Assembly: GCF_026151205.1 (NCBI RefSeq)
Contig: NC_087073.1
Location: forward strand, 10,266,636 to 10,330,635
Origin: Bolinopsis microptera
Lineage: Eukaryota
Direction: 5' to 3'
Length of the DNA stretch: 64,000 nt
Position numbers and translations under genes: made by a program. Of the stretch, positions 6,576 to 49,636 are shown piece after piece; within the stretch, counting starts at the first letter, position 1, and each line of letters opens with the position of its first letter. The notes below the pieces were generated by a model. The model had not been told where the DNA came from. It was given only the letters and a program-made list of their open reading frames with translations, and ran no database searches.

Positions 6576-6735
6576 ATATCTTTTGGAAAGGGACGCGTTT
6601 CTGATGGATTTTGGTAGAAAGTTGTAGATGTATGGGCCAGCAGGACAAGTTATTAGAGCAGTAGAAATGGAAACAGTGCCTGAAAATACAGTGATTTTTG
6701 GGAGTGGTTGTCTCTCGGGTTCAACGAGCGTGCTA

Positions 6736-7192
6736 AATCACTCTACAGTCGATCTTCGAAATTTTTCTAAAAGGCCCCCCCGACAGTTGAGACCAACATC
6801 ATTCGATGTATTTTCGGACGCTGATTCCGAATCACCCCCCATGATTGTAGCGCGATGCACTACTGGGTCGCGCCGCGCATCAAATAATTCGTCTATGCAG
6901 ATCGGCGAGATGCGAAGGATTGACATCGTGAATCAACCCCCATGACATAGGGTTAAAATGCTCCCCTAGCGAGATATTGGCGAAAAACTGTTTTGATCAC
7001 GTGATATGACCATATACGGAAGTTAGTCTAATTTCTCGTTAGGGTTAGGGTTTCAGCATATGCTTTTGTTAAAGATTGGGTTAGGGTTAGGGTTGGGATC
7101 AGATTAGAGGGCTATGATTTCGAATAGTCATTCAGGGCCACCAAGAGAACGTGTTTAAAAAGTCACGTGACAGTCGAGTGTAGAGTGATTAA
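6736..7192 (+). mobile_element. Telomere-repeat-bearing MITE (T-MITE family), copy 1
   Basis: TIR AATCACTCTACAGTCGA at the left and TCGAGTGTAGAGTGATT at the right. Internally it carries CGGACGCTGATTCCGAATCACCCCCATGA, degenerate (TTAGGG)n (gttagggttagggtt...gggttagggttagggttggg) and two TCACGTGA palindromes. Homologous copies lie at 28455-29087 and 50081-50510. Confidence 0.6.
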
Positions 7193-7254
7193 TCATCATC
7201 CCGGGTTCAACAAATTGCTCTACTAAACAAATAGGTGATTTTTATTTTTATTGA

Positions 7255-8457
7255 TTGTTGGATAGGATGGCAGGAATACCAGATGCCAAAGACCCAGTGT
7301 ACCCCTTTGTGTGCACAGTACCTACTTACGAAGAGTTTGAAAAGAAGATCAAAACACGACGCAATGGATCTTCACCAGGGCCCAACGGAGTGCCATACAT
7401 AGTTTACAAAAGGTGTGCCAGGCTGAGAGAACTATTGTATGCGTGTATTAGTAAACTCTGGTTATCAAACAGTGTCCCCTTGCAGTGGAGAATTGGAGAA
7501 AGCATCCTACTTCCCAAGACCACGGACCTTAGTGACCCTGGCAAGTTTAGGAACATCACTATGACTAACACCAGTGGGAAAGTGGCAATGGGTATGCTAG
7601 CTGATAAAATGCTCGACTACATGACCACCAATAAGTACATCGATACCTCTGTGCAAAAAGGCTTCCTGCGCAAGATGCCAGGATGCATAGAACACACACA
7701 AGCGCTCATGGAGGAACTGCGGGATGCAAAGAGTAAGAGAAGACAGGTGTATGCAGTATGGGTGGATCTTATGAATGCTTATGGGAGAGTACCCCATGAG
7801 CTGATAGTGTTTGCGCTTCGGCACTACAAGTTCCCGGAAGAAGTGGTCCAATATATTGTCAAGTACTACGACGAACTGGTAGTACGGGTGAAGACGAAGA
7901 AGTGGAAGAGTGAGTGGTTCTACTACCTAATCGGGTTGTTTCAAGGGGACCCGCTTTCTGTCGTGCTATTCTTAATAGCATTCAACCTACTCTTGGATTT
8001 ACTTCAGGTCGACAGAACAATGGGATACAAGCCGTCGTTCAGCTCTGAGCCAACTACAAACAGAGCTTTTGCAGATGATCTCACCCTGCTGTCTGACAGA
8101 CTCGACAAAATGAAGAGGCTGGTCGGGCAAATGGAGGAATTCTTAGCATGGACAAGGACGATGAGAGCTAAACCCAGCAAGTGTATTGCTCTCGGAATGA
8201 AGGTAGTGGACAATACCTACAGATCGTTTGACCCTGAGATCATCATTGCAAACGAGAAAGTAGCGTACCTTGGTGACACACCGATAAAGTTCCTTGGTCA
8301 CTGGATTTACGTCAACCTGGGCCAAGATGAGACGAGAGAGCTAATCACCACTCAACTTTCAGGCCAGCTGGAAAAAGTAGACATGGCGGAGCTCTCTGGA
8401 CCAAGCAAGTGCTGGATCTACAACCACATGCTAACTAGCAAAGTACAGTGGAATATT
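7255..8457 (+). CDS. Reverse transcriptase, N-terminal part of the LINE ORF. It continues in frame at 9832 once the nested element is removed.
   Basis: The ORF-track protein has the canonical LINE RT motifs 0-5, including FADD. The frame is open from the TGA stop at 7252-7254. Confidence 0.75.
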
Positions 8458-9823
8458 GGGGGGGGGGGGGGGGGGGGGGGGGGGCCAATGGCATAAATGG
8501 AGAAAATGGAGAATTACTCATGGGTTTTTCCATTTTCTCCATAGAAATAGTCTCCATTTTATGCCATTTTATGCCATTTTATGCCATTTTATGCCATTTT
8601 ATGCCATGGAAAACCTGAAAAATTTAGAATTTCGAGAAAAATTATTAAAAAAAAAGATATTTTCGGCCAATAATGAACAGAGTATCATGAAACATGGAGA
8701 AAAGTGGTTTTCAGAAAAACTTTGAAAGATGTTGACTTAAAAAATGTTCGGTCCGAGTCATTTACGAAACGTACCTCCCGTATCGAGAGCTCCCGATTCC
8801 GAGCTCGTGTTGCAAAGGGGAGGCCTATCTTCCGAGATCGCATTTCCTCGAGTCCAAAATTGTGTATCGAGGGGAAGGTGTGGACTTCGAAAAACCGAAA
8901 AAATATTTTCGGCAAATAATGAACAGAGTAGCATGAAACGTGGAGAAAAGTGGTTTTCAGAAAAACTTTGAAAAATTTTGACCGAAAAAATATTTTCGGC
9001 TTATAATGAACAAGGTAGCATGAAACGTGGAGAAAAGTGTTTTTCAGAAAAACTTTGAAAAATGTTGACTTAAAAAATTACCCCTCGCTCGGTACACAAT
9101 TTTGGACTCGAGGCTTCCCCCTGGTAATGCGATCTCGGAAGGCAGGCCTCCCCTTTGCAACACGAGCTCGGAATCAGGAGCTCTCGATACGAGAGGTACG
9201 TATCGAGAATGACTCGGGCCGAAAATTTTCCAAGTCAAAATTTTTCAAAGTTTTTCTAAAAACCACTTTTCTCCACGTTTCATGCTACCCTCTTCATTAT
9301 GAGCCGAAAATATTTTTTGGTTTTTCGGTTTATCGAAGTCTGCACCTACCCCTCGATACACAAATTTGGACTCGAGGCTTCCCCCTGGTAATGCGATCTC
9401 GGAAGGCAGGGCTCCCCTTTGCAGTGCGAGCTTGTTTCGACTGTCGAGGATGTAGGTCTCACTTCTCAGTGCCTATTACTCTCCCCTATTACTCACTCCT
9501 GCTGTAGCCTGTAGAAATAACTTTACACTAGGCTTGAGTGATTATGAGTTTGCCTGAAGTGTGCCTCTACTAACCTAGTATAAGCATCTAGTAGCCTACT
9601 ATGAGCTTTCATAAGCTTGTTACGCCCCTAGTAAGCGTAAATAAACATGTTAGGATGTCCAATTTAGGTGTTAAATGGTATTAAAGATGAAATTTCGAAG
9701 ACAAAATTCATGGCATAAAATGGAGAAAATGGAGAATTACTCATGGGTTTTTCCATTTTCTCAATAGAAAAAGTCTCCATTTTATGCCATTTTATGCCAT
9801 TTTATGCCATTGGCCCCCCCCCC
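8458..9823. mobile_element. Foldback-type DNA element with homopolymer termini (G27 ... C10), inserted into the LINE RT ORF. Element A of the polyG/polyC-capped family.
   Basis: G run at 8458-8484 and C run at 9814-9823. Inverted subterminal blocks CCAATGGCATAAATGGAGAAAATGGAGAATTACTCATGGG... mirror ...CCATTTTATGCCATTGG. (TTTATGCCAT)n tandem copies sit at both ends. Internally there are ~75-bp tandem units and a long inverted repeat (8760-8880 versus 9090-9200). The 8-bp direct repeat GGAATATT appears at 8450-8457 and 9824-9831. Confidence 0.7.
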
Positions 9824-9831
9824 GGAATATT

Positions 9832-11181
9832 ATGATATACAACCTCCCAGTATCATTCATCCAGACACTAGAGGCTCTTTGTACCAGATACTTGAAGAAA
9901 TGGCTTGGAGTTACTACTTCCATATCGAATAGTGTGCTGTACAGATCAAAAGACCACTTTGGACTATCGTTAAAGCAGATCTCCAACCTGTACAAATGTC
10001 TACAGGTGTCCAAGGCCTATATGCTGAAGACATCGGTTGACCCCAAAGTGAGGGAGGTTTTCGAGTACAGAGAAAACACCAACAGAGACAAGAAGAGATG
10101 GGACTACACCAAGGAGCTGACTAATAGGGAGAGAGACCTCTACTTCAAAGAACTGATTGGCTACGTGCAGACCAGGGAAGGAGCCGGTATTGGATTCGGT
10201 GATCAGAGGAGGAAGAAGAACAAAAAGGAGCAACTGGTGGAGATAATTAAGTCTCTGAAAGAAGAGGAGCTCCTTCAAACTCTCTACGATAAGAGAGTCC
10301 AAGGAAAGTTTCTAACCTGGGAGAACACCATGCAGCTAGACACTGGCTGGCAAAGCCTGCTGTATACCTTGAGCCCTGAGCTGACAAAGTTCCACCTAAA
10401 TGCCATCCACGACGTTGCAAGTACACCTAGCAACCTCCAGCTTTGGAACTACAGCTCCACGAACAACTGTCCCCTCTGTGGGCGTCAGCAGTGCAACCTA
10501 AAGCACATTCTAACGTGTTGCCCAGTGTCGCTTAAACAAGGAAGATATAATTGGAGACATGATCAGGTGCTCAGGGTTATCGTGCAACCAATTGCAGAGA
10601 AGCTGAGGGAGACAAACAGTGCTACCCCAAAGACAGAAGTGAAGAGAGAGTGGAGGAAGTTCGTATCCGGAAAAGGAACCTACAGGAAACCCGAAGTACG
10701 GCTTACAGAAGAACCTCATCTTCTAGAGGAAGGTAACGACTGGAAACTAGTGTTTGATGAGGACGAAAGGACAAGACAATTCCCCCAACATATTGTCAAC
10801 ACAGCTCTCAGACCTGATGTGGTAATATACTCTAACACACTCAGGAAAGTCATCCTGATAGAGCTGACCTGTGGAAACGAGGAGAACTTTGAGGACCAGA
10901 GATCCCGGAAAGAGAAGAGATACGAAGAGCTAATGGTGGAGATCGAGACCGCAGGCTGGGAAGGATATCTCTTTACAGTAGAAGTTGGATGTCGTGGATT
11001 CTACCACCACACATTACCCCGAATTTTCAACTTCCTTAACATCACCCGGGCAAAGAAGAAGAGGGCACTTAACACAACAGCGGTGGTGTCCCTGAAAGGT
11101 TCCTACACTATCTGGCTTAGTCGCTACAACAAGACCTGGAGTGACAACTGGCAGCTGGCCGAAAGACCCTGCCCAGTTTAA
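9832..11181 (+). CDS. LINE ORF C-terminal part: RT thumb, CCHC zinc knuckle and restriction-like endonuclease
   Basis: ORF 9784-11181. The frame is continuous with 7255-8457 when 8458-9831 is excised: cag tgg aat att | atg ata tac reads QWNI|MIYNL. Confidence 0.7.
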   Translation: MIYNLPVSFIQTLEALCTRYLKKWLGVTTSISNSVLYRSKDHFGLSLKQISNLYKCLQVSKAYMLKTSVDPKVREVFEYRENTNRDKKRWDYTKELTNRERDLYFKELIGYVQTREGAGIGFGDQRRKKNKKEQLVEIIKSLKEEELLQTLYDKRVQGKFLTWENTMQLDTGWQSLLYTLSPELTKFHLNAIHDVASTPSNLQLWNYSSTNNCPLCGRQQCNLKHILTCCPVSLKQGRYNWRHDQVLRVIVQPIAEKLRETNSATPKTEVKREWRKFVSGKGTYRKPEVRLTEEPHLLEEGNDWKLVFDEDERTRQFPQHIVNTALRPDVVIYSNTLRKVILIELTCGNEENFEDQRSRKEKRYEELMVEIETAGWEGYLFTVEVGCRGFYHHTLPRIFNFLNITRAKKKRALNTTAVVSLKGSYTIWLSRYNKTWSDNWQLAERPCPV

Positions 11182-12325: not shown

Positions 12326-12721
12326 GGTCACTGGTCACTGGTCACTGGTCACTGGTCACTGGTCACTGGTCACTGGTCACTGGTCACTGGTCACTGGTCA
12401 CTGGTCACTGGTCACTGGTCACTGGTCACTGGTCACTGGTCACTGGTCACTGGTCACTGGTCACTGGTCACTGGTCACTGGTCACTGGTCACTGGTCACT
12501 GGTCACTGGTCACTGGTCACTGGTCACTGGTCACTGGTCACTGGTCACTGGTCACTGGTCACTGGTCACTGGTCACTGGTCACTGGTCACTGGTCACTGG
12601 TCACTGGTCACTGGTCACTGGTCACTGGTCACTGGTCACTGGTCACTGGTCACTGGTCACTGGTCACTGGTCACTGGTCACTGGTCACTGGTCACTGGTC
12701 ACTGTGCACTGGTCACTGGTC
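12326..12721. repeat. Microsatellite (TGGTCAC)n, about 56 copies
   Basis: A perfect 7-mer tandem array is directly visible. It sits inside a ~120-bp flanking duplication (12140-12300 versus 12850-12960). Confidence 0.95.
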
Positions 12722-13220
12722 AAAGGATCAGGGTGTTGTCAAATCATAGAATTTAATCTATGTTTTATCTAAAACTCGATAAATCAAAATCGGCAAAACA
12801 AACATGTAGCATGTATAATTAAAAATGTATATTCACTCACAGTCCTCAACGTTCAAAACAGGATTTGCTATGACCAAGTTTTCGTCTAAGATTTCTTCTG
12901 TCATGACTCAAATGATAGAATGTAGCCGATTCTCTGTAAAGCAGCAGTTCTTCGTCAACAGGAAAAAACAGAAATTAGAAGAGTAAAATCTTTTGATTTT
13001 TAGTAGTTTAAATTCTGTTTAATATTCATATCCATGGGAAATTTATTTCGTTTATAACTATGTCTATTCCCTCTCAGACGGTTATTTAGTGGTCATGGTA
13101 TTTTGTGGCCGAGCAGTAGCAGTACTGCCAGTACGTTACTTTTGAAGACCCAATGACCACTCATGCTGTCAACCATTATTTTGTATTTTAAACTATCCAT
13201 TTTTCCCAGCTACCCGCTAC

Positions 13221-13437
13221 GCAGCTCTTCGCGCTTTATTCAGTGGGCATGGTAAATATTTGAGGCTGATTGTTCCTGTAAATAAAAAACTTTAGGAAAA
13301 TATGACTGATGCACTCCTTGGGCAGGAGATCTTCGCGCTTTATTCAGTGGGCATGGTAAATATTTGAGGCTGATTGTTCCTGTAAATAAAAAACTTTAGG
13401 AAAATATGACTGATGCACTCCTTGGGCAGGAGATAGT
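13221..13437. repeat. Tandem duplication, 2 copies of ~108 bp. A 33-bp Lys-codon-rich tandem array follows at 13440-13560.
   Basis: cttcgcgctttattcagtgggcatggtaaatatttgaggctgattgttcctgtaaataaaaaactttaggaaaatatgactgatgcactccttgggcaggagat occurs twice in tandem. Confidence 0.7.
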
Positions 13438-17680: not shown

Positions 17681-17740
17681 CAACCCTTGGTGCGTCGTGT
17701 CGTAGAGCTAATCGTCGATTACAACAGACCGAGCAACTGC

Positions 17741-18095
17741 AATGTGCTGCATTGTGCTGCATTGTGCTGCATTGTGCTGCATTATGATTCATTGTGCTCT
17801 TTGTGATTCATGGTGCTGCATTGTGATGCATTGTGATTCATTGTGATTCATTATGATTCATTGTGCTCTTTGTGATTCATGGTGCTGCATTGTGATGCAT
17901 TGTGATTCATTGTGATTCATTATGATTCATTGTGATTCATTATGATTCATTGTGCTCTTTGTGATTCATGGTGCTGCATTGTGATGCATTGTGATTCATT
18001 GTGCTGCATTGTGCTGCATTGTGCTGCAATGTGCAGCAATGTGCTGCAATGTGCTGCAATGTGCTGCAATGTGCTGCATTGTGGTGCCACTGCAT
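17741..18095. repeat. Minisatellite, 10-bp unit CATTGTGCTG with variants (CATTGTGATT, CATTATGATT)
   Basis: About 35 tandem 10-mers are directly visible. The antisense and sense poly-HCAA / CNVL ORFs (17940-18230) are artefacts of this array. Confidence 0.9.
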
Positions 18096-20185: not shown

Positions 20186-23100
20186 ATCAATTTGGTTTGG
20201 ACACATAGTAAGACAGCACAAATATAGGTGAATTCTTCGTATATTTACATCTCTAGCCTATAAAAATAAAATTAGGTTAGACTAATGAAAGCAATTTAAA
20301 AGTTAACAACTTGAAAATTCAAAACAGATTTTAATCTGAAACTTTACTAAAGAGCTCAATGTGCTAGGTAGAATGGACAACAGAGCATAACAGATTATTC
20401 AGCGAGTAACTACAATCCTATTTAACCCAAAAATATTAGTTCTAAATTTTGAAATAAGAATGCTCTCTTCTCTATCAAGTTCTGTTGGTCGGACTTTTCT
20501 TACTACACCTAATTTAAAAACTCCCATAGTGAAATCAGATTTATGCGCTAGAAAACAATGCATGGAAAGTGCCGACTTCTCAAATGACAATTCATTATCA
20601 ATTTTAAACTTGTTTCTGTGTCCATTCATTCTGATATGAAATGGAGAAACCGTTTGGCCGAAATAGGTATCGTCTTTTAGGCTCTGGGGAAGTTTATTAC
20701 AAATTTGGCATTGGGCGACATAAATTATATTGCTGTCCTTACATGTCAACCGGAAATCCAGAGTTAAATCCAAACCATTGACAGTGATAACTTCGTTGGA
20801 GTTGAACAGTTGGGGACAGGTTGCACAGCCTCTCCCCCCACAGTTTTGGCTTACGGTGAAAGAATCCGTTTCGGAGCACGAACTGAGTTTTCTATTGCGC
20901 ACTACTGTGTTGCCTATAGATGGCTGTTTACGTAGTGCAAACAATATCTGTACGTCTCCGCATAATTGTTTGATGTCCTCACTAGTAGAGTGTACCAACT
21001 TCCTAAGTTCAGTGACCTCTTTGAAAAATTTCACTGAAAAGACAACTTTGTCAGTGATTGGCTTCTTTTCTTCCCTCTCATACAAATCGTGTTCTATTGA
21101 CCTCAAGACTGCTTCAGGCTCTGTTTCCGTTAAGGTCCCCTCCTTGTGTCCACTTTTCATTAGGTCTTCTTTAAGTTCCTCCAGGTCCTCCACACAGGTG
21201 TGATCCTGCGAATTTCGCTTGATCACTCGGATCATCTGTGAGAATACTACTGATTTAAAGACGTGGTTTGGGTGGAAACTATCAGTATTAAGGTAAAGCC
21301 TGGCATCAGTCTCTTTCTTAAATAGTCTGTAGTCGATGTTGTTGTTCTCCCCCAGGGAGAGTTCTACATCCAAGTAGTTAACTGATTTGCCAAACTGACA
21401 ATCACCGAACTGAATTCCAAATCGTTTTGCGGCTTCATTTAGTTTCGACACAAAAAGATCAAATTGCCTCCTGGAGCCCTTCCAAATTCCAAAGACATCG
21501 TCGATGAAGCGTCGCCAGAATAAAATAAGACTCCATAGCTGTATCATTTCAGGCCAGATGTTGATGAATAGCACCCAATGAAGCATGATATCAGCGACTT
21601 GACGCGAAATACAATTTCCAGTTGGGATACCCTTTTTGCCTGTGTACACATTTTCTTGAAAAGTGACAAAGGAGTTTGTGAAGATAGTCTCCGTGAATGT
21701 TTTCAGAATAGCCTTTCGTTTATCAATCATAGTACTACCGTTCAGGGCATGTTCCAATGCAGACATAGCTATTTCAGGTTTTATGCTTGGATACAGACTG
21801 ATCACGTCTAAAGTAAACAAGTTGATGGTGCTATATTTTGACATGTCTGCAGATTCATTAAGGTTTTTTATGTTACTGAGAAGGTCTGGTGTATCCAGGA
21901 GAAACTCCTGTTGGCAATAAATCCTACTTACATCTGTTAGGTATGGGCTAACCCACTTTTCTAGCCTGTAAAGGGGGCCTTCCTTAGTGGCATGGACAAG
22001 CCTGGTAGGGGGAACTATTTTCCCCTCAATCTGTTGTGGACTTAATTTATGCAGCTTAAATAAAGGGTACACATAAGGGACTACTGGTTTGAATACATGT
22101 GCATGCATTTGGTTATTATTTTCATTAAGTCCAGTAATGAGTTTCTTGTCTTTTTCTGTGATTTTCCCCTCTGATAAAGCCAGAAGAACTGCATCCTTAA
22201 CATTATTCTTCACATCTGTCATTTTCTCTTCAACTGACATTTGGGAATGAGCAAAGTTATCTCTGTCTCCTAAGTTCCTTTGAACACATTCCACAGCTTC
22301 CTTATAGTCAAGAATCAAGGTCGATCCTCCTTTGTCAGCTTTGGTGACAAAGATGTTCTCATCTTCTATATTTTTCAAAATCCATCTCTTCCCTCTCCTC
22401 TCTGCTGGTGTCAGGTTAGACTTCGGGTCAGCAGGCATGAAGCTGTTTACGAAACCCATCAGTTTTGTTTTTATTTCATCAAAGAGCGGGTTGCTGTACT
22501 CAGGATGCCTTCTTGAAGGTATCCTTAAGCCAGGATGTTCGTCTTCGTTGAAACTATTGTTCTCAGTTGGGTTATCATGAAAGAACGCCGTCCATGAAAC
22601 TTTACGTAAGAACTCTTTGGTGTCATACTGAAGGTCTTCCTTACTTGCCTTTTTACTTTCCACAAAGTTCAAGCCTTTGGCCAGATACAAAAATGCTATA
22701 TCGGGGACTTCTACATGGGACAGATTTCTCACAACTGTGGACGATATCTCCTTGACTCTCTGTTCCAACCATAACTTTTTCCGGTTCTGCTTGTTTTTCT
22801 GGTAGCGTTTGCGCCCGGCCTTCTTCTTTTCGGCAGATGCTTTTCTCCACTTCTTGCGTTTGGAATTTGAAGAAGGAGGGTTGGCTTCTGTTCCCTGTTT
22901 GTTGAGATGAAACTGAATTTTCTTTTGGTGGGTTTTCCTGATGCGCTCACGAACCTTTTCAGCCTTGTTTTGAAGGGATTGCAAAGTTGGTCCGGAATCT
23001 TCAACAAGTTTAAGCAGTTTGCTAAACTGTTGGCCCAGCTTAACAATATCTCGATTAGCCTCGACAACTGAACACTCCTTGAGAATGCGTAATCTTGCAT

Positions 23101-27666: not shown

Positions 27667-28454
27667 TGCCCCTGCTATAAGTTTAGGCGATGTTGGATGT
27701 GATCCAAGTTACTCTGCCTGGTGTCTTTTTTGAGTTCCAAACAATACAAAGTCTGACAAAGCTTAACACAGTCATGGAGAATAAATAAATCTGTGATCCG
27801 ATAGTGCTGACAACGCCAATAACTGAATACTCAGTGCTTGTCATCCACTTCATTTGATCTCTGCAGTATAATCCATCTTTTGAGGTGATGTTAATGTTAT
27901 CATAGACTGCTATGCTGAGAAGTCGAGAAGATAACAGCCCACTAGGAAGTCACCAAAAGAAATCAAAATCACTAAACATTTGTTGACCATAACAACAGCG
28001 TTTTTACTGGTACCCAGCTTGCGTAGAGACTTTATGATTATTAATATTATTACAATAGATAGTTTTTGGGAGTTCCAAATAGTTTCTGATTATTCTGATT
28101 TCTTGCGACAAATGATACTGCACTGTTAGAATAAACGACGTTTCAAAGTAACAACTTCGTACTCATGCTAATATTATTATTATATATATTATATATATTA
28201 TATAATATTATTACGTTTGCGATGATATATAATAATAGCCGATATCCCGATAGACCATGACAGAATTTTAATGATAAGAGTTGCCCAGAAATTTTTTCAG
28301 CAGTGATCGTTGCATTCATTTGTGTTATCCAAGCAATCAAATTTCCCATCGCATTTTTTAGTCATCGTTATGAAATCATCTGGATCACATCTGATCGAAG
28401 TGATTTGTACCGCTCCTACTAAATCGCTCGCCCAAATTTTAAGAAAATTCTTGT

Positions 28455-28519
28455 GAAAAGGCCCTTTGGGCATAAAAAGTGATCTGGATGGGTGTATTTT
28501 TGGACGCTGATTCCGAATC

Positions 28520-28552
<33 letters not shown>

Positions 28553-29087
28553 ATGACGTAGGGTTAAAATGCTTCCCTGGAGAGTTATGGGCAAAAAACC
28601 ATTTTGGTCACGTGACAGGCTAGTAAAATACGAATTCGATTGTTTAGGGCCCGGGTTAGGGTTAGAGTTGTGGTAAGGGTTATGGTTAGCTTCGGGGTTA
28701 TGGTTAGGATGATAATTAATCACTCTACACTCGACTGTCACGTGACTTTTTCAACCCGTTCTCTAGCTGGTCCTGAACGACTATTCGAAACCCTAACCCT
28801 CTTATTTGATCCCAACCCTAACCCTAACCCAATCCTTAACAAAAGCATATGCTGAAACCCTAACCCTAACGAGAAATTAGACTAACTTCCTTATACTGTA
28901 TACGGTCATATCACGTGATCGAGACAGTTTTTCGCCTATATCTCTTCAGGGGAGCATTTTAACCCTATGTCATGGGGGTGATTCGGAATCAGCGTCCGAA
29001 AATACATCGATTGAAGTTGGTTTCAACTGTCGGGGGCCCTTTTAGAACAATCTCGAACTCGAAGATCGACTGTATGTAGAATGATTT
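28455..29087. mobile_element. Composite T-MITE locus. A forward partial copy (28455-28717) is fused head-to-head to a complete reverse copy (28718-29087), with more TTAGGG-like sequence downstream (29100-29180).
   Basis: Homologous to 6736-7192 in both orientations: GGACGCTGATTCCGAATCA...ATGACGTAGGGTTAAAATGC forward, and its reverse complement at 28940-29010. TIR ATTAATCACTCTACACTCGAC lies at 28718. TCACGTGA occurs three times. Confidence 0.6.
28522..28552. repeat. 31-nt poly-C homopolymer inside the T-MITE TIR-proximal motif GAATCA(C)nATGAC
   Basis: The same position has C5 in copy 1 (6893) and C4 in copy 3. This looks like a homopolymer expansion. It produces the spurious poly-Gly ORFs 28297-28554 and 28439-28741. 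Confidence 0.9.
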
Positions 29088-30995: not shown

Positions 30996-31027
<32 letters not shown>

Positions 31028-41285: not shown

Positions 41286-43334
41286 CGGTCCTGAAGTCGA
41301 GAATTGAATATCAGCTAACTTCACCTATCATTGATTCCTAACTTCCTGTTGATTGGAGAGCGAACTTATTTACATAGTGCTGTTTCCTGACAGTGTATTC
41401 TAGTGGGAGGTGAAGCATATTTTTGGCACGTGCAGTGATCTGGGGGACGGGGTTTGACTGGTCAATAGTGGTAGATGATTGGTTTATTGCTGTCACGTGT
41501 CAAAACGATATACCTGACCTCCCCACCATGCATCAGAATCCACGTCTATATTTAATCAAAGCAAAATATTTTTCCAGTTAATCAAATCAAAACATGAAAA
41601 AAGAAGTGTAACAAAAAGATTAAATTATGACATTACTGGCCCCATAACAACTGTGCGAACAATTTAAAGAACTTGTAAACTTGTGTTACTTGTCATGGTG
41701 CATCAAACACCACCACCCCGGTTCAGTACGGATTTAATGGGGGATGCGGGGAGTAATACTGGACCATGTTATGTGAACTGTGGTCTGCACTCATATTAGT
41801 GTGGTGGAAGACATCACATCGTATTTGTTTTGATAATGATACTGAAACAGTTGGGGGGGGGGGGGGGGGGGCGTCCAACCCGATTTCCGATATGAGGGTT
41901 GATGAGGCCAAAATCGGAATCGGAAAAATAGGAAAATTGAGAAATTTACTGAATCGATCTCTAAAACCTCTCAGAAGTGATATAATTTAACCAGAACCCC
42001 TACATATGCTATGTATGCTATATGAAAACGAACCAATTGTACATTCCAATAGTATGTTTTATGTGTATTCCCATTTCCCACTGCATGCATGATGCAGGGG
42101 CTAGTATGCTCACTACTAGTTGGAGTTATCATGTACTCCCAGACCCGAGTGCTTTGGTCTCTTGTGAGATCGATTGTTTCTGCTCATTGATTCTATCCCT
42201 GTTACTTGTTATTATGTATTAGTAGTAGTACAACACTGGGTACCGGGTTATATTTTGTGGTCCGGTCTTTAAACATACCATAATATCACTATACTTAGTA
42301 TACTGCACCTTAAGGCCACAGGGGGGGGGGGGGGGTCGAGGCCTCAAAAAATGCAAAAAAATATTATGCTTTGAATTAATATATATTTTTGTGGCGGATA
42401 CTTTGCCACCACTCATTTGTCTGTAGCTATTTTACTTTTTTTAATAAATGAGGTTAACCAATTCTTCCGAAATTGGCTATGCAATATTGAGGGTAACGAA
42501 ATTGATGCCTAGAATTGATTTCATGCCAAGATATTTTGTTGTTTCGATCAACAAATAATGAATCCTAATTCTGTTTCGCAATTGGTTGAAAATGAAGGAC
42601 CCAAAGTGGGTAAAAACGAGGTTAACCTCTTATTTCATTGATATCGAGAAGGACTGAGATGAAAGTTATCATCATTCATAAAGTAAGTTCAGTGCATTTT
42701 AATTTCAAAACGTATCTCGTACTAATGTATTACTTCAAATCTACAGAAAATCTAAAAAATGAGGTTAACCAGGTAAATTGTGACCACTATAAAACATACA
42801 TAATTGTCTAATTTTTAATCGAACTCAAGACATTAGTAAGTTATATATTTGCTGGGAAGATTGATCACGAGAAAAATATGATTTGAAACAACTATTCCTT
42901 GCAAGCAATATTGACCATTAACATACGATAAAATGAGGTTAACCAACTTATTTCAATTTGTAATACAGCAACTTTAATGGAACCTTAATAGCGGTTAACC
43001 TCACATTTGAATATCAGTTAACCTCAAATTTGCATCATTAATATGCAGTACTTGCAGGAAATGGTGTTTCAGGGATTTAATCTCCTTAAGTGTATCAAAA
43101 ACTACAGTATATAACATATGGAACTACAAATACAAGCCATACCATGTGTTTAGTGACTAAAGTTAACCTCATTTTTTTGATGAATCGATGATGGAGGGCA
43201 GAAATATTGATGCCATTACAACTGAAAACTACTATTAGTTTTGTTTTTATAGTTTTTGTGTTATATCAGCAGTTAAACTTTGAGAAATATACAAATAAAG
43301 GCAAAATACTCAAAAATCACAAAACATAAAAAAC

Positions 43335-44566
43335 TAGGCTATCCATTATCGGTATGAAATCTTTTATCTAGATAAACAGATAAAGATTTAGGTTTTATCT
43401 AGATAAAACCGATAAAACCGATAATTTTTCTGCTGAAGGCCAAAGCCTAAATGTTTTCCAAATTTCGCAAAAACTAATTGTCGACTTTTATTACTGTTTA
43501 CCAGTAATCTTGCTAAAGTACCACTTCCTTTCTTTTGAAAATATTAGAGCATCAGTTTTCTTCTCCGGGGAGCAGAAGTGCACCAGTTTTCTTCAAAACA
43601 GTAGACCAACGGTTTTCTTCGCCTAAGAACAGTAGTGTACTACCAGTTCTCTTCAAAACAGTAGACCAACGGTTTCTTCTCCTGAGAACAGTAGTGCACC
43701 AGTTCTCTTCAAAACAGTAGACCATGAACGGTTTCCTTCTCCTGAGAACAGTAGTGCACCAGTTCTCTTCAAAACAGTAGACCAAGGGTTTCCTTCTCCT
43801 GAGAACAGTAGTGCACCTGTTCTCTTCAAAACATTATCTGACCAAGGGTTTCCTTCTCCTGAGAACAGTAGTGTACTACCAGTTCTCTTCAAAACAGTAG
43901 ACCAACGGTTCTCTTCTCCTAAGAACAGTAGTGCACCAGTTCTCTTCAAAACAGTAGACCATGAACGGTTTCCTTCTCCTGAGAACAGTAGTGCACCAAA
44001 TACCAATTCTCCTCGAAACAGTAAAGCATTTAAAGTGATTCAGTGAACCGTTTTCTTATCCTGTTGATAACTTGGAGCAACAGATTCCTACTCCTGAAGA
44101 CAATGTTTCACGCCCAGAACACTTACGGAATTCAATTGAGTGCCCTGCCGGTATTTTTGACTCTCGTTAACAGTAACATGCTCGTTCCCGTCTCCAGAAT
44201 GATTATAAGGTAAAACGCCAGCACTCTCAAGAGAACAATGTCAATAACCTTCTCTGGATTTCAACAGTTCATACAGTTCTACAGTTCCAAAGGTATACAA
44301 ATGTAAATAAACCTCTTAAGCTCACATCTAAGTAAACTACCTCTTCTATCATACTAGAAGACGTTTGGGACTGTTTCTTGGATTACTTAGGAAGGCAAAA
44401 ACACTGATATTTCTTTACAATTTTACGGTATTGTGGAAGTATTTTCGGTAATATCTAGTGAATTTTTATACCGATAACAATATGTTTTATCTAGATAAAC
44501 AGATAACTTTTTTTAACGAATTATCGGATATAATTATCGGTTACGATTATCGGAGTGGATAGCCTA
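43335..44566. mobile_element. hAT-like MITE with an 8-bp TSD, nested in D. Element E.
   Basis: TIR TAGGCTATCCATTATCGG ... CCGATAATCGTAACCGATAATTATATCCGATAA...GGATAGCCTA. Subterminal TTTATCTAGATAAACAGATAA occurs in both arms. Perfect 8-bp direct repeat TAAAAAAC at 43327-43334 and 44567-44574. Confidence 0.65.
43535..44010. repeat. Minisatellite, ~56-bp unit x ~8, inside element E
   Basis: Unit agttctcttcaaaacagtagaccaacggtttcttctcctgagaacagtagtgcacc. The ORFs 43552-43785 and 43653-44006 are artefacts of this array. Confidence 0.9.
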
Positions 44567-45381
44567 TAAAAAACAGTTTTTTGCCTCTCCTGAAAACCTC
44601 GAATTTTAGACTTTAAAATCTATCTTCTCCTAGAGCTTTTATCCAATTCACCTCAAATTTGGAACATACGTTCCTGACATAAATTTAAAAGTTTGTTATG
44701 TAACGATTGTTGTAATTTTGCTCCTAACTCTTTTTATGAGGTTAACCGTTTTAAATTTTGTAACCCGTACTTATGGTTAACCTCATATCTCAGCTTTGGA
44801 GCAAGATATCAAAAATCGTTACATAACAAAAACTCAAAATACCTTGAAAAACATTTTTGCCAAGTTACAAGGTTCTAAGTCGTAAACTGTAAAAGAAGAT
44901 AGATTTTGAACACGATTTCATTTAAAGTTTTCATTTACAATAGAATTACAGGTAAACCTCAAAATTCAACGCGCGATATCTTCAAATAGGAAAGTTTGTT
45001 TTCAGTAAGGACAAAAGCATTTGAAAATTTAGATCGAGCTCTACAACATATCTCAAAATCTCAAAATTGACCTCGGACCCCCCCCCTGTGGCCTTAAATG
45101 TATAGTCAAGTACGTTTGTAGCGTGATCGGTGGTACATGCTTGGCTTTAATAAACATGTCTGTAGGTACATATATAGTAAACTATATGGCAACACATAAC
45201 GGTCCATGGCAAGTTTAAATTATTATCTAATGTGCATCAGTATTGTATAATCCAGTGTCGAAAATTGTTTCTTCCATTCAATATAAAGTTTTGCTTTATT
45301 CTTTATTTATCGTCTCAATTTTGTACATTTTGTGTGGTTATTTTTTCTCAAATTAGTTTTGAAATTTCTTGTTCATTGTAA

Positions 45382-46531
45382 TTGATCAGTTTGTGCAGGG
45401 CGTTGGCCTCTGCTTTTCTGTTAATCTCAGAATTCTTTTCACTATATCTTCTTCCAGGTCTCATGCCAAAATATACTGATATGGTGGAGACACCTTCACC
45501 ACCTGGTATTACCAGTCAGAAAACAGCCCGATCAAACAAAATAGCAACCAGAAAACAGCCCCAGAATAAGGGCAACAAACTGAAGATAAAACTCCGTGGC
45601 CGTCTCATAAAGAAAGGAAAAGTTGAACAAAGCACCAACAAGAAACCTAAAGATTTATCCGAGAAGAAGGCACCAGATGTTGGCAGTGCATCCGGAAAAT
45701 CCAAGCTTAATCCTAGAAAGAAGAAAAGAATTGCTACGATATCATCAGACTCAGATTCAGAGGCAAATGTGCAGCTGAACAAGAAAAATGTAAAGGATTT
45801 GTCACAGCGCCAAAAACTTAAAGCTGTGACAAATCCTTTACATAAAGAGGAAGGACAAACAAGAATACAAACAGCGAAAGACTTTATGGCTATCGTTAAA
45901 ACAGCTAATTTCCTTGCTAAACTCGATAAAGACCCCACGTATTCAGATATAAGCAAAGTTTTTGCCAATTTTGATATGACCCTATCCAAAACTGTTATTG
46001 ATGATGTTTTCAAACGGCGTTTTACAAAAAAACCCAGTAAGAAACTCCATTTATTTATGAAAGGGGCAATTCATGGGTACCCCGAAAATCTTAATCGATT
46101 TCAGTATCGGCGAAAGCCGCAGAACAGACCTGTGTTGAAACCCACACCGGAGCCTGAGAAGACTACAAGAAAGTTTGAAAGTTTCAAAACTTGCAAAGAA
46201 GCACTCTGGACTTTCTTATGCAACAGTCTTTTCACTCGGCATTACTGCCATAGAAAAGTTTGGTCCTCACGTCCTTGATGACGATTATAAGTTGGAAGCT
46301 CTTGTAGAGGCAGAGCTATGCAAATGGAGGCAAGATAAACTTCTATTCTCATTCGGAAATCTCCCATCGGCTGAAAAGATAAGTGTGCCAGAGGCTGTCA
46401 CAGAAGTCAGCAACCTTCTCGTGATTAGACTTAAGACTACTGTAGATGAGCTCAACAATCCAGTCTCTCAGGGCTGCGGTTCAGATCAATCGGACGGTGA
46501 TCGTGTGTTTAATTTTTCATTTATAGAATGA
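45382..46531 (+). CDS. Lys-rich ORF pair (298 aa and 118 aa, separated by one apparent frameshift near 46180-46280) of unknown function, inside element C
   Basis: Long open frames reading KKGKVEQSTNKKPKDLSEKKAPD... and ...LEALVEAELCKWRQDKLLFSFGNLPSAEKISVPEAVTEVSNLLVIRLKTTVDELNN. No recognisable transposase motif (no DDE/BED signature seen). Confidence 0.25.
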
Positions 46532-48520
46532 TTTCAGTACTGACACTTTTTGACTAAACCCAGATTGCCGTGATCAGACATCGCATCAGCATGTGATTAT
46601 GGTGGTCAGCTTTTTTACTACATTAAATGAAATGGTACTGTAATCTGTATCATGTATATATTGCTCTGACCACACCTTTTTTAATGATTCATCAATTTGT
46701 TGTTCCATGCCAGTACAGTGGCATATTAGATTTGGTTTTTAAATATTTAGATTTTTAAGTATCTTATTAGATTTTATGTTGTTAAATTGGTTTTTTAAGT
46801 TATTAAATTGGTTGTTTGACTGACTTTTTTTGATTGTTTATTATGTTCTTGTTTAAATTGTTTAACTTTGAACTTTATTTACTGTAGATTTTTACAGCCA
46901 GTAACGGCAGTACGGGATTTTGATTATTAAATCTCTTTTTCAACCTTATAATCAAATATTTTAATCCATTGTTGATTGTTCTGTATTGACTTATTATATA
47001 TTTTCTAATTCGATATACATGATTTTTACTTTACACTGATGTTTCACTTGAATATTTGTGTCTCTTGATAACAATTACAATTTCTGCTGAAGATTGTTCT
47101 TTGATCTTAGAATCAATTTAAAACAAAATATTAAAAATTAACCATTACAGTGTGCACAGCTCAATTGAAGTTTCAAAATGCAATATAACATAAAGCCATT
47201 GTTACTATTTGGTTTGGGGTTCTGGGACCACCACCAATCAATTTCTTGTCATATTTAAGTACAGAAATAGCTACCTATATCGCCTAGAAACCTCAGAGGA
47301 AAGATTTAAATTTTCCCGATTTTCCCGATATAAGGGTTAATGATGAATGAGGCCAAAATCGGAATCGGAAAAATCGGGTTGGACCCCCCCCCCCCCCCCC
47401 CCCAACAGTTTAAAGAGTTTGGTCTCTGCACTACCCCGAAGACAAACTTTTAAAAATTTTACGAACCTTGATAGCATTCGCCATAATTATCAACAAGAAA
47501 CAAAACAGCTGGCAGAAAGAAGTAGAACTTCTCATATCAAACACATCTTAGCAAACAGCATGATACAAAGTATGTGATCACCTCGTGTCATAAACTGAAT
47601 TTTTACTATTAAGAGTTAATATTAAGTGATATTAAGAATTAAACTTTTTTTAATCTACCTGCAAATTCGATCTTATTATCCAGTACAGACTGCAGCAGGC
47701 CCTGCGTGTTACGGACGCGGTAAAGTTAAACACATTTAAATCAGAATCTGTTTTTCATTTTTAATGTTTTTAATGTCACCGCCTGGAATTATTTTGTACT
47801 ATGCAATCTTTATCTATTGTTAGAATTTGATTTGAACAAGATATAGTGACTATGATAATTTAAGATATTGATTGAATGCAGCTTATTGACGATCGTGCAG
47901 CTTATTGACGATCGTGAGGTAACGATGGTTGATTAAATTTAAATTCATCACGCTTGGCTTGAGAACGTTGAATATCCCTATTCACAAAATTGAAAATAAT
48001 ACATAAATTATTGAAAGGATTCTTAATCCTAAGATAAAGAATTCGATTAGATAGTTAGATATATCAAGCACATGAGTTTGCTTCAGTGATCAGTTCGTTG
48101 CAAATATTAAATTCGCCAAGTAACAGATCTTAAATTCATGTTGCAAAATTATAGGTTTCTAAACTAACTTTTTAATTACCTACATGGCGATTCGTGATTT
48201 ATTTATAACGATAATTTCACTTTCTTAAAGTTTAAATAAAAGATAATTCAATTTCTAATTTAAAGTGGGTAGAAATATTAAATCAAAAGTGTTTAACATT
48301 TTAATGTCCGATCAACCAATCGATGAATACATATCATTTAAATTGGGTAGGATTGCTATTTGAGTATTAGTATTAGCATTAGCAATTAGTGATTGGTCAA
48401 CTGCACAAGCCCATGTTTATTTATAGATTACCTTAATTCCCAAAAATTTGGGCGACAAAAAATTTGAGCGGGCCTCTCGCCCAAATTTTTTGCAGACCAA
48501 ATTAATTGCATAATAATTGC

Positions 48521-49040: not shown

Positions 49041-49636
49041 CGGGGGGGGGGGGGGGGGGGGATCAGGTACCAAGTGCCGGACATCACGTCGACTAAGTGT
49101 AGTTTTGGATATTTTTCACTAGACCCACCCACCCCCTTTGCGGTACTAACTGTTTTTTTGGATAATACGTAAGACACCCACCCCTTTTGCCGCCTTTTGC
49201 GGTACTAACTGTCGAAAAATCGTGGTACTAACTGTTTTTTGGTATATAGAATAAGATACCCACCCATAAATTGCTTTAAACAGCTCATTAAACATTGGAA
49301 ATGGGAAAATTATACCCACTATTTAGTAGGGGTTTTGTTTTCAATGTCGTCGAATTAGCTAAAAAGTTACACAAAAAATTTTAAAATTACAAAAAACCCA
49401 AAAAAAAACTCAAAAAAACCTCAAAACCCATTCCCAAAATTGAAATTTGAGGTAAAATGGTTTTTTTTGGGGTTGGACACCCAAAAAATTAACCCCTTAG
49501 TACCATGTACTAATTGTTTTCCTGGAAAATGGGCAGTAGACCCACCAGTTAGTACCATGTACTAACTGTGTTTTTGGGAGAAAAAATGACCCACCCACCA
49601 CCGTCATGTCCGGTACTAAGTGTATGATCCCCCCCG
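49041..49636. mobile_element. ~600-bp MITE with homopolymer termini (CG20 ... C7G). Element F.
   Basis: CGGGGGGGGGGGGGGGGGGGGGATCAGGTACCAAGTGCCGGACAT at 49041 mirrors ATGTCCGGTACTAAGTGTATGATCCCCCCCG ending at 49636. Internal tandem CCCACCC...TTGCGGTACTAACTGTTTTTT units. Flanking direct repeat ATCCAAG at 49034-49040 and 49637-49643. Confidence 0.65.

What the first reader, a model, noticed from the sequence alone, without database searches (positions are those of the whole stretch)
8450..9831. A homopolymer-capped foldback element sits inside the retrotransposon RT ORF, and precise removal restores the reading frame
Deleting 8458-9831 (the element plus one copy of GGAATATT) joins ...cag tgg aat att | atg ata tac aac... 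into ...KVQWNI-MIYNLPVSF.... This fuses ORF 7255-8496 and ORF 9784-11181 into a single RT-CCHC-RLE polyprotein. That is near-proof of a transposition event with an 8-bp TSD. It also shows the foldback elements were active after the LINE inserted.
Basis: seen in the sequence. Interest (0 to 1): 0.65.

Follow-up and report, generated by a model that had tools for sequence, protein, structure and literature searches.

The report
Poly-G-capped transposon splitting a LINE
A 1.37-kb non-coding DNA transposon with poly-G/poly-C ends has jumped into a dead LINE retrotransposon in a comb-jelly genome; the nested insertion is ordinary, the homopolymer ends are not.

Summary
Bases 8458-9823 (1366 bp) are an insert bounded by G27 and C10. 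It has a perfect 23-nt terminal inverted repeat (G10+CCAATGGCATAAA) and a perfect 8-bp duplication, GGAATATT. Removing the insert plus one GGAATATT gives one 850-aa ORF. That ORF matches residues 303-1152 of an intact Bolinopsis microptera LINE protein at 844/850 identity with no gap. A related LINE (80% nt identity) reads CAGTGGAATATAATGATA straight through the site. The LINE is a 5'-truncated R2-type element (RT, CCHC, restriction-like endonuclease). The insert codes for nothing and is modular: two ~105-nt hairpin end modules in direct orientation, 10-bp subterminal repeats, and an internal foldback of ~260-bp units. Those units form a satellite array in a related ctenophore assembly. The best reading is a non-autonomous cut-and-paste transposon. 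Its superfamily is unresolved: Merlin-like or Mutator/foldback-like are the best guesses, and hAT is disfavoured. The caps look like inherited terminal sequence that lengthens by slippage. Interest is modest.

The parts
7255..8457 (+). 5' part of a 5'-truncated R2-type LINE ORF (RT domain), up to and including the left copy of the target duplication
   Evidence: RVT_1 hit at residues 87-350. Collinear with P0001 from residue 303.
8450..8457 (.). Left target-site duplication, GGAATATT
   Evidence: Uninterrupted relatives carry a single copy of this site.
8458..8484 (+). G27 homopolymer cap (left terminus of the insert)
8485..8497 (+). Left TIR core, CCAATGGCATAAA. With 10 G it forms a 23-nt perfect inverted repeat with 9801-9823.
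   Evidence: I7. The same core is conserved in 8 family termini.
8485..8611 (+). Left terminal module: a hairpin plus 5.4 copies of a 10-bp subterminal repeat (CCATTTTATG, 8554-8607)
   Evidence: DNA fold -22.8 kcal/mol, z = -4.2.
8638..9432 (.). Internal modules A (~108 nt) and B (~81-130 nt) in direct and inverted order. The main foldback arms are 8647-8847 and 9123-9323. The 9088-9432 part is homologous to a 261-bp satellite in L016.
   Evidence: (D2, D4, I1-I6).
9433..9705 (+). Single-copy, non-palindromic segment of the insert, conserved in related copies (L006, L015)
9706..9813 (+). Right terminal module. It is a direct repeat of the left module (98% identical), is itself a hairpin, and carries 3 copies of the 10-bp repeat. 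It ends in the TIR core TTTATGCCATTGG (9801-9813).
   Evidence: DNA fold -25.9 kcal/mol, z = -6.8.
9814..9823 (+). C10 homopolymer cap (right terminus of the insert)
9824..9831 (.). Right target-site duplication, GGAATATT
9832..11181 (+). 3' part of the LINE ORF (thumb/linker, CCHC zinc knuckle, restriction-like endonuclease) through the stop codon
30996..32379 (.). Second capped element, E2: G30 ... C11. It is a near-perfect 2 x 682-nt palindrome (96% complementary, 1-nt centre) with TTAA on both flanks. It ends 65 bp upstream of a TPR+SNF2 ORF.
41853..47403 (.). Third capped element, E3: G19 ... C20, TIR TCCAACCCGATTT..., 7-bp duplication AACAGTT. It contains E4.
42321..45086 (.). Fourth capped element, E4, nested in E3: G15 ... 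C9. Here the inverted repeat extends 11 nt outside the caps (TTAAGGCCACA / TGTGGCCTTAA).
   Evidence: (I8).
49042..49635 (.). Fifth capped element, E5: G20 ... C7, with an imperfect 27-nt TIR. The 7-bp duplication ATCCAAG lies 1 nt outside the caps.
   Evidence: (I1).

Best explanation
The insert is a non-autonomous class II (cut-and-paste, TIR) DNA transposon of a family specific to lobate ctenophores. It landed in a dead, 5'-truncated R2-type LINE copy in Bolinopsis microptera.

**Shown.** It has defined termini (G-run + CCAATGGCATAAA). It created an exact 8-bp duplication of GGAATATT. It has no coding capacity. It belongs to a family found in other ctenophore-derived contigs with the same capped ends.

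**Inferred.** A DDE-type transposase supplied in trans binds the TIR core and the 10-bp subterminal repeats (ATTTTATGCC). It excises the element and joins its 3' ends to target cuts staggered by 8 bp. Repair of the gaps makes the duplication.

**Superfamily.** This is unresolved. My best guesses are Merlin/IS1016-like (terminal 5'-GG, duplications of 8-9 bp) or Mutator/foldback-like, as proposed for Tetris. hAT is disfavoured.

**Caps.** The poly-G/poly-C caps are an inherited part of the inverted termini, about 9-12 nt as a base state. They lengthen independently at each end by replication slippage. That explains G27 against C10.

**Internal modules.** The ~260-bp internal modules are the same units that have amplified into a satellite array in a related ctenophore assembly.
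For: - **Termini and duplication.** Exact 8-bp duplication and 23-nt perfect TIR. Chance rate about 2e-5.
- **Empty site.** An intact paralogue P0001 is 844/850 identical with 0 gaps. Fifteen homologues are gap-free at the junction. DNA of a related LINE is uninterrupted at CAGTGGAATAT(A)ATGATA.
- **No coding capacity or known RNA.** No Pfam domain in the insert ORFs. No Rfam family reaches its threshold.
- **Family membership.** There are 205 spurious-ORF hits to the internal modules in ENA contigs.
- **Satellite link.** A 261-bp satellite made of the same modules, at least 29 copies, sits in L016.
- **Slippage.** An internal C5-6 run of an unrelated MITE family is C31 in one copy.
- **Caps are not universal.** A canonical hAT MITE in related contigs has 8-bp duplications, the TIR CTAAGATGTGAAG, and no cap.
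- **Cap polarity is specific.** Five of the six G runs of 6 nt or more in the window are left termini of TIR elements. The opposite-polarity control gives 0 of 11.
- **Merlin candidacy.** Merlin has terminal 5'-GG, 8-9-bp duplications, and has been reported in ctenophores (PMC8101967).
Against: - No autonomous copy or transposase was found in the window. None could be retrieved from the related contigs, so the superfamily and the trans-mobilisation are inferred only.
- The long terminal modules are direct repeats, not inverted, which is atypical for classic foldback elements.
- Sister capped elements show 7-bp duplications (E3, E5) or only TTAA (E2, E4). One transposase type may not explain them all.
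- The two caps of this young insertion differ by 17 nt, which requires fast slippage.
- L015 carries a cap-less, cyclically permuted arrangement of the same modules. L003 joins an E2-type TIR to an E1-type end. Simple cut-and-paste does not explain either.
Confidence: 0.8

Rival explanations
1. The caps are not inherited terminal sequence. They are made or remodelled at each mobilisation. One route would be template-independent tailing of excised ends. Another would be a sliding-back step of protein-primed replication, which needs terminal nucleotide reiterations. Unrelated elements would then all acquire G(n)/C(n) ends.
For: Five elements with unrelated TIR cores all carry caps. Two kinds of flank occur: 7-8-bp duplications and TTAA. 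Cap lengths at the two ends of one element are very unequal, 27/10, 30/11 and 20/7. L003 shows an E2-type TIR without its own cap, followed by an E1-type end plus C12.
Against: An internal, non-terminal C run expands from C5 to C31 in situ, so slippage alone can produce long runs. The interrupted cap GGGAGGG recurs in three family termini, which suggests inheritance, although those copies may not be independent. E1, E3 and the orphan run at 52457 share a (T)CCAA motif right after the cap, as expected for a conserved templated TIR tip. A canonical hAT MITE in related contigs has no cap.
Confidence: 0.1
2. The insert is a non-autonomous hAT element, since 8-bp duplications are the hallmark of hAT.
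For: The 8-bp duplication. Short subterminal repeats, as in Ac/Ds. A hAT dimerisation-domain fragment lies among E1-type modules in L017 (Pfam 30.9 bits).
Against: That fragment belongs to a separate ~630-810-bp hAT MITE. It has its own canonical TIR (CTAAGATGTGAAG), its own 8-bp duplications at three sites, and no cap. It simply inserted into an A module. E1 termini do not fit the hAT YARNG consensus, and GGAATATT does not fit nTnnnnAn (both consensus patterns from my own knowledge). The capped elements E3 and E5 have 7-bp duplications. No full-length hAT related to the fragment was found.
Confidence: 0.08
3. The insertion predates this LINE copy. A source LINE that already carried the insert was transcribed and retrotransposed, so the element was not active at this locus.
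For: Nothing direct. The duplication and insert would be copied faithfully through RNA, so the structure alone cannot exclude this.
Against: The intact copy P0001 and every other homologue recovered lack the insert. A 1.4-kb foldback with G27 would be a poor template for transcription and reverse transcription (my inference).
Confidence: 0.04
4. The feature is an artefact or a coincidence: an assembly chimera, or unrelated sequence that happens to be flanked by an 8-mer repeat.
For: Long homopolymers are hard to sequence, so the exact cap lengths (27, 10) may be imprecise.
Against: The exact duplication, the perfect TIR and the exact restoration of a protein 99% identical to a paralogue. Independent assemblies from other samples contain the same capped termini.
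Confidence: 0.02

Closest known systems
Tetris (Drosophila virilis foldback transposon) and its relative DAIBAM (PMC4079207)
   Same: Both are non-autonomous and modular, with no ORF. Duplications are 8-9 bp. Internal tandem units of ~220 bp (Tetris) or ~260 bp (here) also occur as kb-scale satellite arrays. In both cases no autonomous partner was found, so the superfamily is inferred from duplication size alone.
   Different: In Tetris the tandem repeats lie inside long inverted termini. Here the true inverted terminus is only 23 nt, the long end modules are direct repeats, and the ends are homopolymer-capped. Satellite formation is seen here in a related assembly, not in this window.
Merlin superfamily (IS1016/IS1595-related DDE transposons)
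   Same: 8-9-bp duplications, a conserved terminal 5'-GG, TIRs of 24-462 bp, and reported presence in ctenophore genomes (PMC8101967).
   Different: No DDE_Tnp_IS1595 transposase was linked to this element. Runs of 9-30 G go far beyond 'GG'. The sister capped elements have 7-bp duplications.
Drosophila FB and Mutator-related foldback elements (e.g. Tm1 of root-knot nematodes, PMC3169594)
   Same: Extensive self-complementarity, modular subrepeats and non-autonomous copies. Most foldback elements are assigned to Mutator (statement in PMC4079207).
   Different: FB and Tm1 have long inverted termini built of subrepeats and 9-bp duplications (the 9-bp figure is from my own knowledge). E1 has short inverted termini and an 8-bp duplication.
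Galileo/1360 (P superfamily foldback-like elements)
   Same: Foldback-like architecture with 7-8-bp duplications (my own knowledge; cited as an exception to the Mutator assignment in PMC4079207). That range matches the 7- and 8-bp duplications of E1, E3 and E5.
   Different: No THAP-type transposase and no P-like terminal sequence was found. Not tested further.
Telomere-bearing elements (TBE1/Tec) of spirotrich ciliates
   Same: Transposons whose inverted termini end in a simple G/C-rich repeat (telomeric C4A4/G4T4). This is from my own knowledge and is offered only as an analogy for 'capped' transposon ends.
   Different: Those caps are telomere repeats in Tc1/mariner-related elements with 2-3-bp (TA/ANT) targets. 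Here the caps are pure homopolymers with 7-8-bp duplications. The host's telomere-like motif in this window is TTAGGG.
R2-supergroup non-LTR retrotransposons (the host element)
   Same: RT plus C-terminal CCHC plus a PD-(D/E)xK restriction-like endonuclease. The best solved relatives are R2 proteins. The 5' truncation is typical of target-primed reverse transcription.
   Different: About 25-30% identity to R2 over the RT region (my estimate from the alignment). Some relatives carry protease domains (UCH, C48), as in NeSL/Utopia-like lineages (my own knowledge). Site specificity was not examined.

Membership tests
Class II TIR transposon (non-autonomous) | Terminal inverted repeats | tested here: met
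   23 nt, 100% complementary: G10+CCAATGGCATAAA (I7).
Class II TIR transposon (non-autonomous) | Target-site duplication of fixed length, with an empty site available for comparison | tested here: met
   GGAATATT occurs twice. A single copy is present in intact relatives at protein and DNA level.
Class II TIR transposon (non-autonomous) | Multiple dispersed copies sharing the termini | tested here: met
   Eight termini in the window plus four independent contigs. 205 module-derived ORF hits.
Class II TIR transposon (non-autonomous) | A cognate transposase encoded by an autonomous relative | not testable with these tools
   None in the window. The B. microptera genome could not be retrieved.
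Foldback (FB-type) elements | Long inverted termini composed of subrepeats, making up most of the element | tested here: not met
   The ~105-nt end modules are direct repeats (D3). The long inverted repeat (201 nt, 88%) is internal (I1). E2 in the same window does meet the criterion (682-nt arms).
Merlin | 8-9-bp duplication and terminal 5'-GG | tested here: met
   8 bp, and the termini start with G runs. Criteria taken from PMC8101967. Sister elements E3 and E5 have 7 bp.
Merlin | DDE_Tnp_IS1595 transposase | not testable with these tools
   No autonomous copy was available.
hAT | 8-bp duplication | tested here: met
hAT | Short TIR with the 5'-YARNG consensus (own knowledge) | tested here: not met
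   The termini are G(n)CCAATGG. A genuine hAT MITE in related contigs has CTAAGATGTGAAG and no cap.
hAT | hAT transposase or dimerisation domain belonging to the element | tested here: not met
   The only hAT fragment near E1-type modules belongs to an independently inserted hAT MITE with its own duplications.
R2-supergroup LINE (host element) | Reverse transcriptase domain | tested here: met
   RVT_1 at 1.5e-18. R2 structures at 1e-85 with a profile.
R2-supergroup LINE (host element) | C-terminal CCHC motif followed by a PD-(D/E)xK endonuclease | tested here: met
   Invariant C916, C919, H928, C933, P1031-D1032, E1047 and K1063 in 30 homologues. There is a weak direct alignment to the R2 endonuclease region (stretch 2). 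zf-RVT scores 23.5 bits, below its cutoff.
R2-supergroup LINE (host element) | Site-specific insertion | not tested
   Only one truncated copy was seen. It abuts an unrelated MITE.

The most novel reading that the evidence does not exclude
Lobate ctenophore genomes may harbour a previously undescribed class of mobile DNA defined by obligatory poly(dG)/poly(dC) termini rather than by a shared terminal sequence. Several sequence-unrelated families, with 7-8-bp duplications or TTAA flanks, would all carry G(9-30) at both 5' ends. The caps would then reflect a step of the mobilisation chemistry, such as tailing, sliding-back priming or a G-tract-recognising enzyme, and not ordinary TIR inheritance plus slippage.
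Probability: 0.12. Interest if true: 0.65.

Novelty: new member of a known kind. Interest (0 to 1): 0.35.

Why it matters
The nested insertion itself is routine. It dates relative TE activity: the DNA transposon family moved after a LINE family that is still 99% identical to an intact, probably active copy. What deserves attention is the cap. In this 64-kb window, five of the six G runs of at least 6 nt are left termini of inverted-repeat elements. Long pure G tracts can form G-quadruplexes and are mutagenic in other animals. If the caps are an intrinsic feature of a transposon group, they would be a new terminal signature for annotating ctenophore repeats, which are poorly curated. They would also be a candidate source of fragile sites. 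The link between the element's internal modules and a 261-bp satellite gives a second, non-insect example of a foldback-like transposon seeding satellite DNA.

Tried and rejected
1. **hAT link.** A hAT dimerisation fragment among E1-type modules looked like a superfamily clue. Fetching more copies showed it is a separate uncapped hAT MITE with its own 8-bp duplications.
2. **Transposase in the larger capped elements.** There was no Pfam hit for ORFs or for six-frame translations of E3. The E4 interior and 49.6-52.5 kb were not scanned in six frames.
3. **Structured RNA.** Rfam gave only sub-threshold plant miRNA-hairpin look-alikes.
4. **Retrieving B. microptera DNA for other LINE copies.** The proteins were not on record. 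A related metagenomic LINE was used instead.
5. **Metagenome scan with the 18-nt terminus.** It gave 13 loci, of which only L003, L006 and L008 are true relatives. The other 10 have no extended similarity and are chance matches.
6. **Mnemiopsis sample.** One 22-kb locus has no long G/C runs, which is uninformative.
7. **Systematic search for capped pairs in related contigs.** It found none complete, only single capped ends.
8. **Literature.** No description of poly-G/poly-C-capped transposons or of ctenophore foldback elements turned up in the searchable library. The GC-rich motif at chromatin-loop anchors in Mnemiopsis could not be compared, because its sequence is not given in the text.
9. 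**Other readings.** An intron, a Helitron and a SINE were considered and dropped: the ends are not GT..AG, the element has TIRs and a duplication, and there is no poly-A tail.
Full report
**1. The observation**

The sequence is as described. GGAATATT occurs at 8450-8457 and again at 9824-9831. Between the two copies lie 1366 bp that start with G27 (8458-8484) and end with C10 (9814-9823). Just inside the runs, CCAATGGCATAAA faces TTTATGCCATTGG. Together with ten G:C pairs this makes a 23-nt perfect inverted repeat (I7). The duplication is exactly 8 bp, because the neighbouring bases differ on both sides.

In this window an 8/8 match of flanks at a fixed spacing occurs at a rate of about 2e-5. 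At spacing 1366 the only such position is this one. Deleting 8458-9831 produces a single 850-codon ORF from 7255 to 11181.

**2. The decisive test**

A protein search with the excised ORF identified the organism as the lobate ctenophore Bolinopsis microptera. It also returned an intact 1152-aa paralogue, P0001 (LOC134815422). The excised ORF aligns to residues 303-1152 of P0001 with 844/850 identities and no gap. It reads ...KVQWNIMIYNLPVSF... straight through the junction.

Fifteen homologues, with identity to the query down to about 35%, are also gap-free there. At DNA level, a related LINE at 80% nt identity, on a Tara Oceans marine metagenome contig (L021), reads CAGTGGAATATAATGATATAC without interruption. 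So the empty site holds one copy of the 8-mer, and the G and C runs belong to the inserted DNA.

One qualification applies. Insert plus duplication is 1374 nt = 3 x 458, so the two halves were already in the same frame and are separated by 19 in-frame stops. 'Restores the frame' is therefore weak evidence on its own. The collinearity with relatives is what proves the event.

**3. The host element**

- RVT_1 is found at 1.5e-18.
- A 30-sequence alignment has an invariant CCHC (C916, C919, H928, C933 in P0001 numbering) followed by invariant PD...E...K residues (D1032, E1047, K1063).
- The profile's best solved relatives are R2 retrotransposon proteins at 1e-85 (single-sequence search).

The RT-CCHC-RLE reading is right. 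The copy lacks about 302 N-terminal codons. This is the usual 5' truncation of target-primed reverse transcription, so it was dead on arrival.

**4. Anatomy of the insert**

It is less a classic foldback than a modular element.

- *End modules.* The outer ~105 nt at each end (8485-8611 and 9706-9813) are direct repeats, 98% identical. Each folds into its own hairpin, with z = -4.2 and -6.8. Each carries tandem 10-bp repeats (ATTTTATGCC), 5.4 copies on the left and 3 on the right. The left arm of the left hairpin and the right arm of the right hairpin supply the inverted tips.
- *Interior.* Two unit types, A (~108 nt) and B (~81-130 nt), occur in direct and inverted order. They give a 201-nt, 88% inverted repeat (8647-8847 / 9123-9323).
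- *Unique segment.* Bases 9433-9705 are single-copy.
- *Whole strand.* It can fold at -344 kcal/mol.

No ORF has a Pfam domain and no Rfam family reaches its threshold.

**5. The family exists beyond this window**

An exact-match scan of metagenome contigs with the 18-nt terminus gave 13 loci. Three of them (L003, L006, L008, from one sampling series) share extended similarity with the insert.

I then used spurious ORFs read from the insert as a protein query. This gave 205 hits on ENA contigs up to 1.3 Mb long, evidently ctenophore DNA in long-read assemblies. Fetching several of these showed three things:

- L017 has another capped left end, G9+CTAATGGCATAAATGG.
- L015 has a cap-less copy in which the unique segment, one end module and the interior are contiguous, a cyclic permutation of the window's element.
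- L016 has a 261-bp satellite of at least 29 units, 84-87% identical to 9088-9432.

All eight family termini now in hand carry a G-rich cap immediately 5' of C(C/T)AATGGCATAAA. The caps are G27, G10, G12, G9, G7CCG6, G3AG5 and G3AG3 twice. The cap is therefore a conserved part of the family's ends and not an artefact of this assembly. Four of the eight flanks contain AATATT next to the cap. This hints at a target preference, but the copies may not be independent.

**6. Other capped elements in the window**

The window has twelve G or C runs of at least 9 nt, against about 0.1 nine-base G/C matches expected by shuffling. Nine of the twelve are termini of inverted-repeat elements.

| Element | Coordinates | Caps | Terminal sequence | Flanks |
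|---|---|---|---|---|
| E1 | 8458-9823 | G27 / C10 | CCAATGGCATAAA | 8-bp duplication GGAATATT |
| E2 | 30996-32379 | G30 / C11 | near-perfect 2 x 682-nt palindrome | TTAA on both sides |
| E3 | 41853-47403 | G19 / C20 | TCCAACCCGATTT | 7-bp duplication AACAGTT |
| E4 (nested in E3) | 42321-45086 | G15 / C9 | inverted repeat continues 11 nt outside the caps | TTAAGGCCACA / TGTGGCCTTAA |
| E5 | 49042-49635 | G20 / C7 | imperfect 27-nt TIR | 7-bp duplication ATCCAAG, 1 nt outside the caps |

A systematic scan found complementary sequence inside G...C pairs for E1-E3 at a strict threshold. It found none among 11 pairs of the opposite polarity. E1, E3 and an orphan C15 run at 52457 share a (T)CCAA motif right after the cap.

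**7. What the caps are**

Two observations favour inherited terminal sequence that expands by slippage.

- An unrelated ~470-bp MITE family ('F2') has an internal C5-6 run in most of its copies. The copies lie at 6723-7202, 28400-29100 and 50081-50510, and also in L008. In one copy that run is C31 (28522-28552).
- Genuine hAT MITEs in the related contigs have 8-bp duplications at three sites (GTGTGCCT, GGTGTAAC, ACCCTGAT), a Tam3-like TIR (CTAAGATGTGAAG) and no cap. Capping is therefore not something these genomes do to every cut-and-paste element.

The commonest cap lengths are 9-12 (C10, C11, C9, G9, G12). That looks like a base state, with 19-31 as expansions. This is an inference.

The rival view is that caps are produced during mobilisation. 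It is kept alive by three facts: the caps occur on elements with unrelated cores and two kinds of flank, the two ends of one element are very unequal, and L003 joins an E2-type TIR to an E1-type end plus C12. I give it about 0.1.

**8. Mechanism and classification**

Shown: defined ends, an exact 8-bp duplication, no coding capacity, and a multi-copy family.

Inferred: mobilisation in trans by a DDE transposase that binds the TIR core and the 10-bp subterminal repeats and makes 8-bp staggered target cuts.

No transposase is present in the window, and none could be tied to the family. Duplication length (8 bp, and 7 bp in the other capped elements) fits several superfamilies:

- *Merlin:* 8-9 bp, terminal 5'-GG, present in ctenophores (PMC8101967).
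- *Mutator/foldback:* the assignment proposed for Tetris from its 8-10-bp duplications (PMC4079207).
- *P/Galileo:* 7-8 bp (my own knowledge).
- *hAT:* 8 bp.

hAT is disfavoured. The termini do not fit its consensus, and the one hAT clue turned out to be an unrelated MITE. I lean to Merlin-like or Mutator/foldback-like, with low confidence in either.

**9. Comparison and novelty**

The closest described analogue is Tetris of Drosophila virilis. It is non-autonomous and modular, has 8-9-bp duplications, its internal ~220-bp units also form satellite arrays, and its transposase is unknown. The present element differs in three ways: its true inverted termini are short, its end modules are direct repeats, and it has homopolymer caps.

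Seven full-text literature searches found no description of poly-G/poly-C-capped transposons or of ctenophore foldback elements. I could not consult Repbase or Dfam, so 'undescribed' is provisional.

I classify the finding as a new member of a known kind: a non-autonomous TIR transposon family with an unusual terminal feature. The nested insertion is ordinary. The caps, and the link to a satellite, are the parts worth a genome-wide follow-up.

**10. Verdict**

- Observation: confirmed.
- Interpretation: supported, with two caveats. The timing claim assumes the insert was not inherited from a source LINE. 'Foldback' fits only partly.
- Interest: 0.35.
- Most novel reading not excluded: the caps are a mechanistic signature of a new mobilisation pathway shared by unrelated families. 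Probability about 0.12, interest if true about 0.65.

Noticed in passing
window 6723-7202, 28400-29100, 50081-50510; L008 480-600: A ~470-bp MITE-like family ('F2') with TIRs AATCACTCTACA.TCGA, CACGTGA motifs and degenerate TTAGGG-like arrays. One copy abuts the truncated 5' end of the LINE. The copy at 28.4-29.1 kb is two arms joined head-to-head. An internal C5-6 run is C31 in one copy (28522-28552).
   Followed up: partly
window 52457-52471 and 52619-52627; L015 1894-1911: Orphan C15 and C9 runs with no G-run partner in the window. The sequence on both sides of the C15 run is conserved in a related contig, where the run is C18. In this repeat the run is therefore internal, or the element is much larger than the window shows.
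   Followed up: partly
window caps: 8458/9814, 30996/32369, 42321/45078, 49042/49629: In four of five capped elements the plus-strand G run at the left end is much longer than the C run at the right end (27/10, 30/11, 15/9, 20/7; E3 is 19/20). The elements are symmetric, so this asymmetry relative to the chromosome strand is unexplained. Replication direction or sequencing bias are possibilities.
   Followed up: no
L003 300-372: A chimeric terminus in a related metagenome contig. An E2-type TIR (TTTCACAAAAAAATCAGGGTGAA), without its own cap, is followed by 35 nt of the E1-type right end and then C12.
   Followed up: no
L015 9906-10700: An E1-family copy without caps or TIR tips. The unique segment, one end module and the interior are contiguous. 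This is the arrangement expected from recombination between the two direct end modules of a tandem or circular form.
   Followed up: no
L016 8409-16003: A 261-bp satellite of at least 29 units, 84-87% identical to window 9088-9432 (the internal A/B modules of the insert). It runs to the end of the fetched locus.
   Followed up: yes
L022 5884-6514; L023 5783-6591; L017 18.1-19.7 kb (two copies): A canonical hAT MITE carrying a transposase C-terminal fragment (Dimer_Tnp_hAT, 30.9 bits). Its TIR is CTAAGATGTGAAG, and it has 8-bp duplications at three different sites. In L017 it sits inside an A module and was co-amplified in a ~1-kb tandem repeat.
   Followed up: yes
L019 4329-5589 and 9441-10705 (the same region is in L020): A ~5.1-kb duplicated segment in a related contig. 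It holds clusters of five C runs (C8 to C21) interspersed with TTACGTAA-type palindromes. This is another repeat family rich in long homopolymers.
   Followed up: no
window 30996-32379 and 32444-35329: The palindromic capped element E2 ends 65 bp upstream of the ATG of a 961-aa ORF with TPR repeats and an SNF2 helicase domain (SNF2-rel_dom 3.4e-70), i.e. at a likely promoter.
   Followed up: no
window 12326-12722; 17737-18087; 13226-13434; 43530-43998: Simple and tandem repeats: (GGTCACT)x57, a degenerate 10-bp array (CTGCATTGTG) x35, a perfect 104-bp duplication, and 8 copies of a 60-bp unit inside E4.
   Followed up: no
window 20399-23311 (-) and 37969-39315 (+): Long ORFs of 970 aa and 448 aa with no Pfam match. 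They are presumably host or TE genes of unknown type.
   Followed up: no
flanks of E1-family termini: window 8452-8457 and 9826-9831; L017 about 20060; L008 about 95: AATATT lies next to the cap at four of eight termini (GGAATATT twice, CACAATATTGTG twice). This may be a target preference for an AT palindrome. Some of these copies may share ancestry, so it is weak.
   Followed up: no
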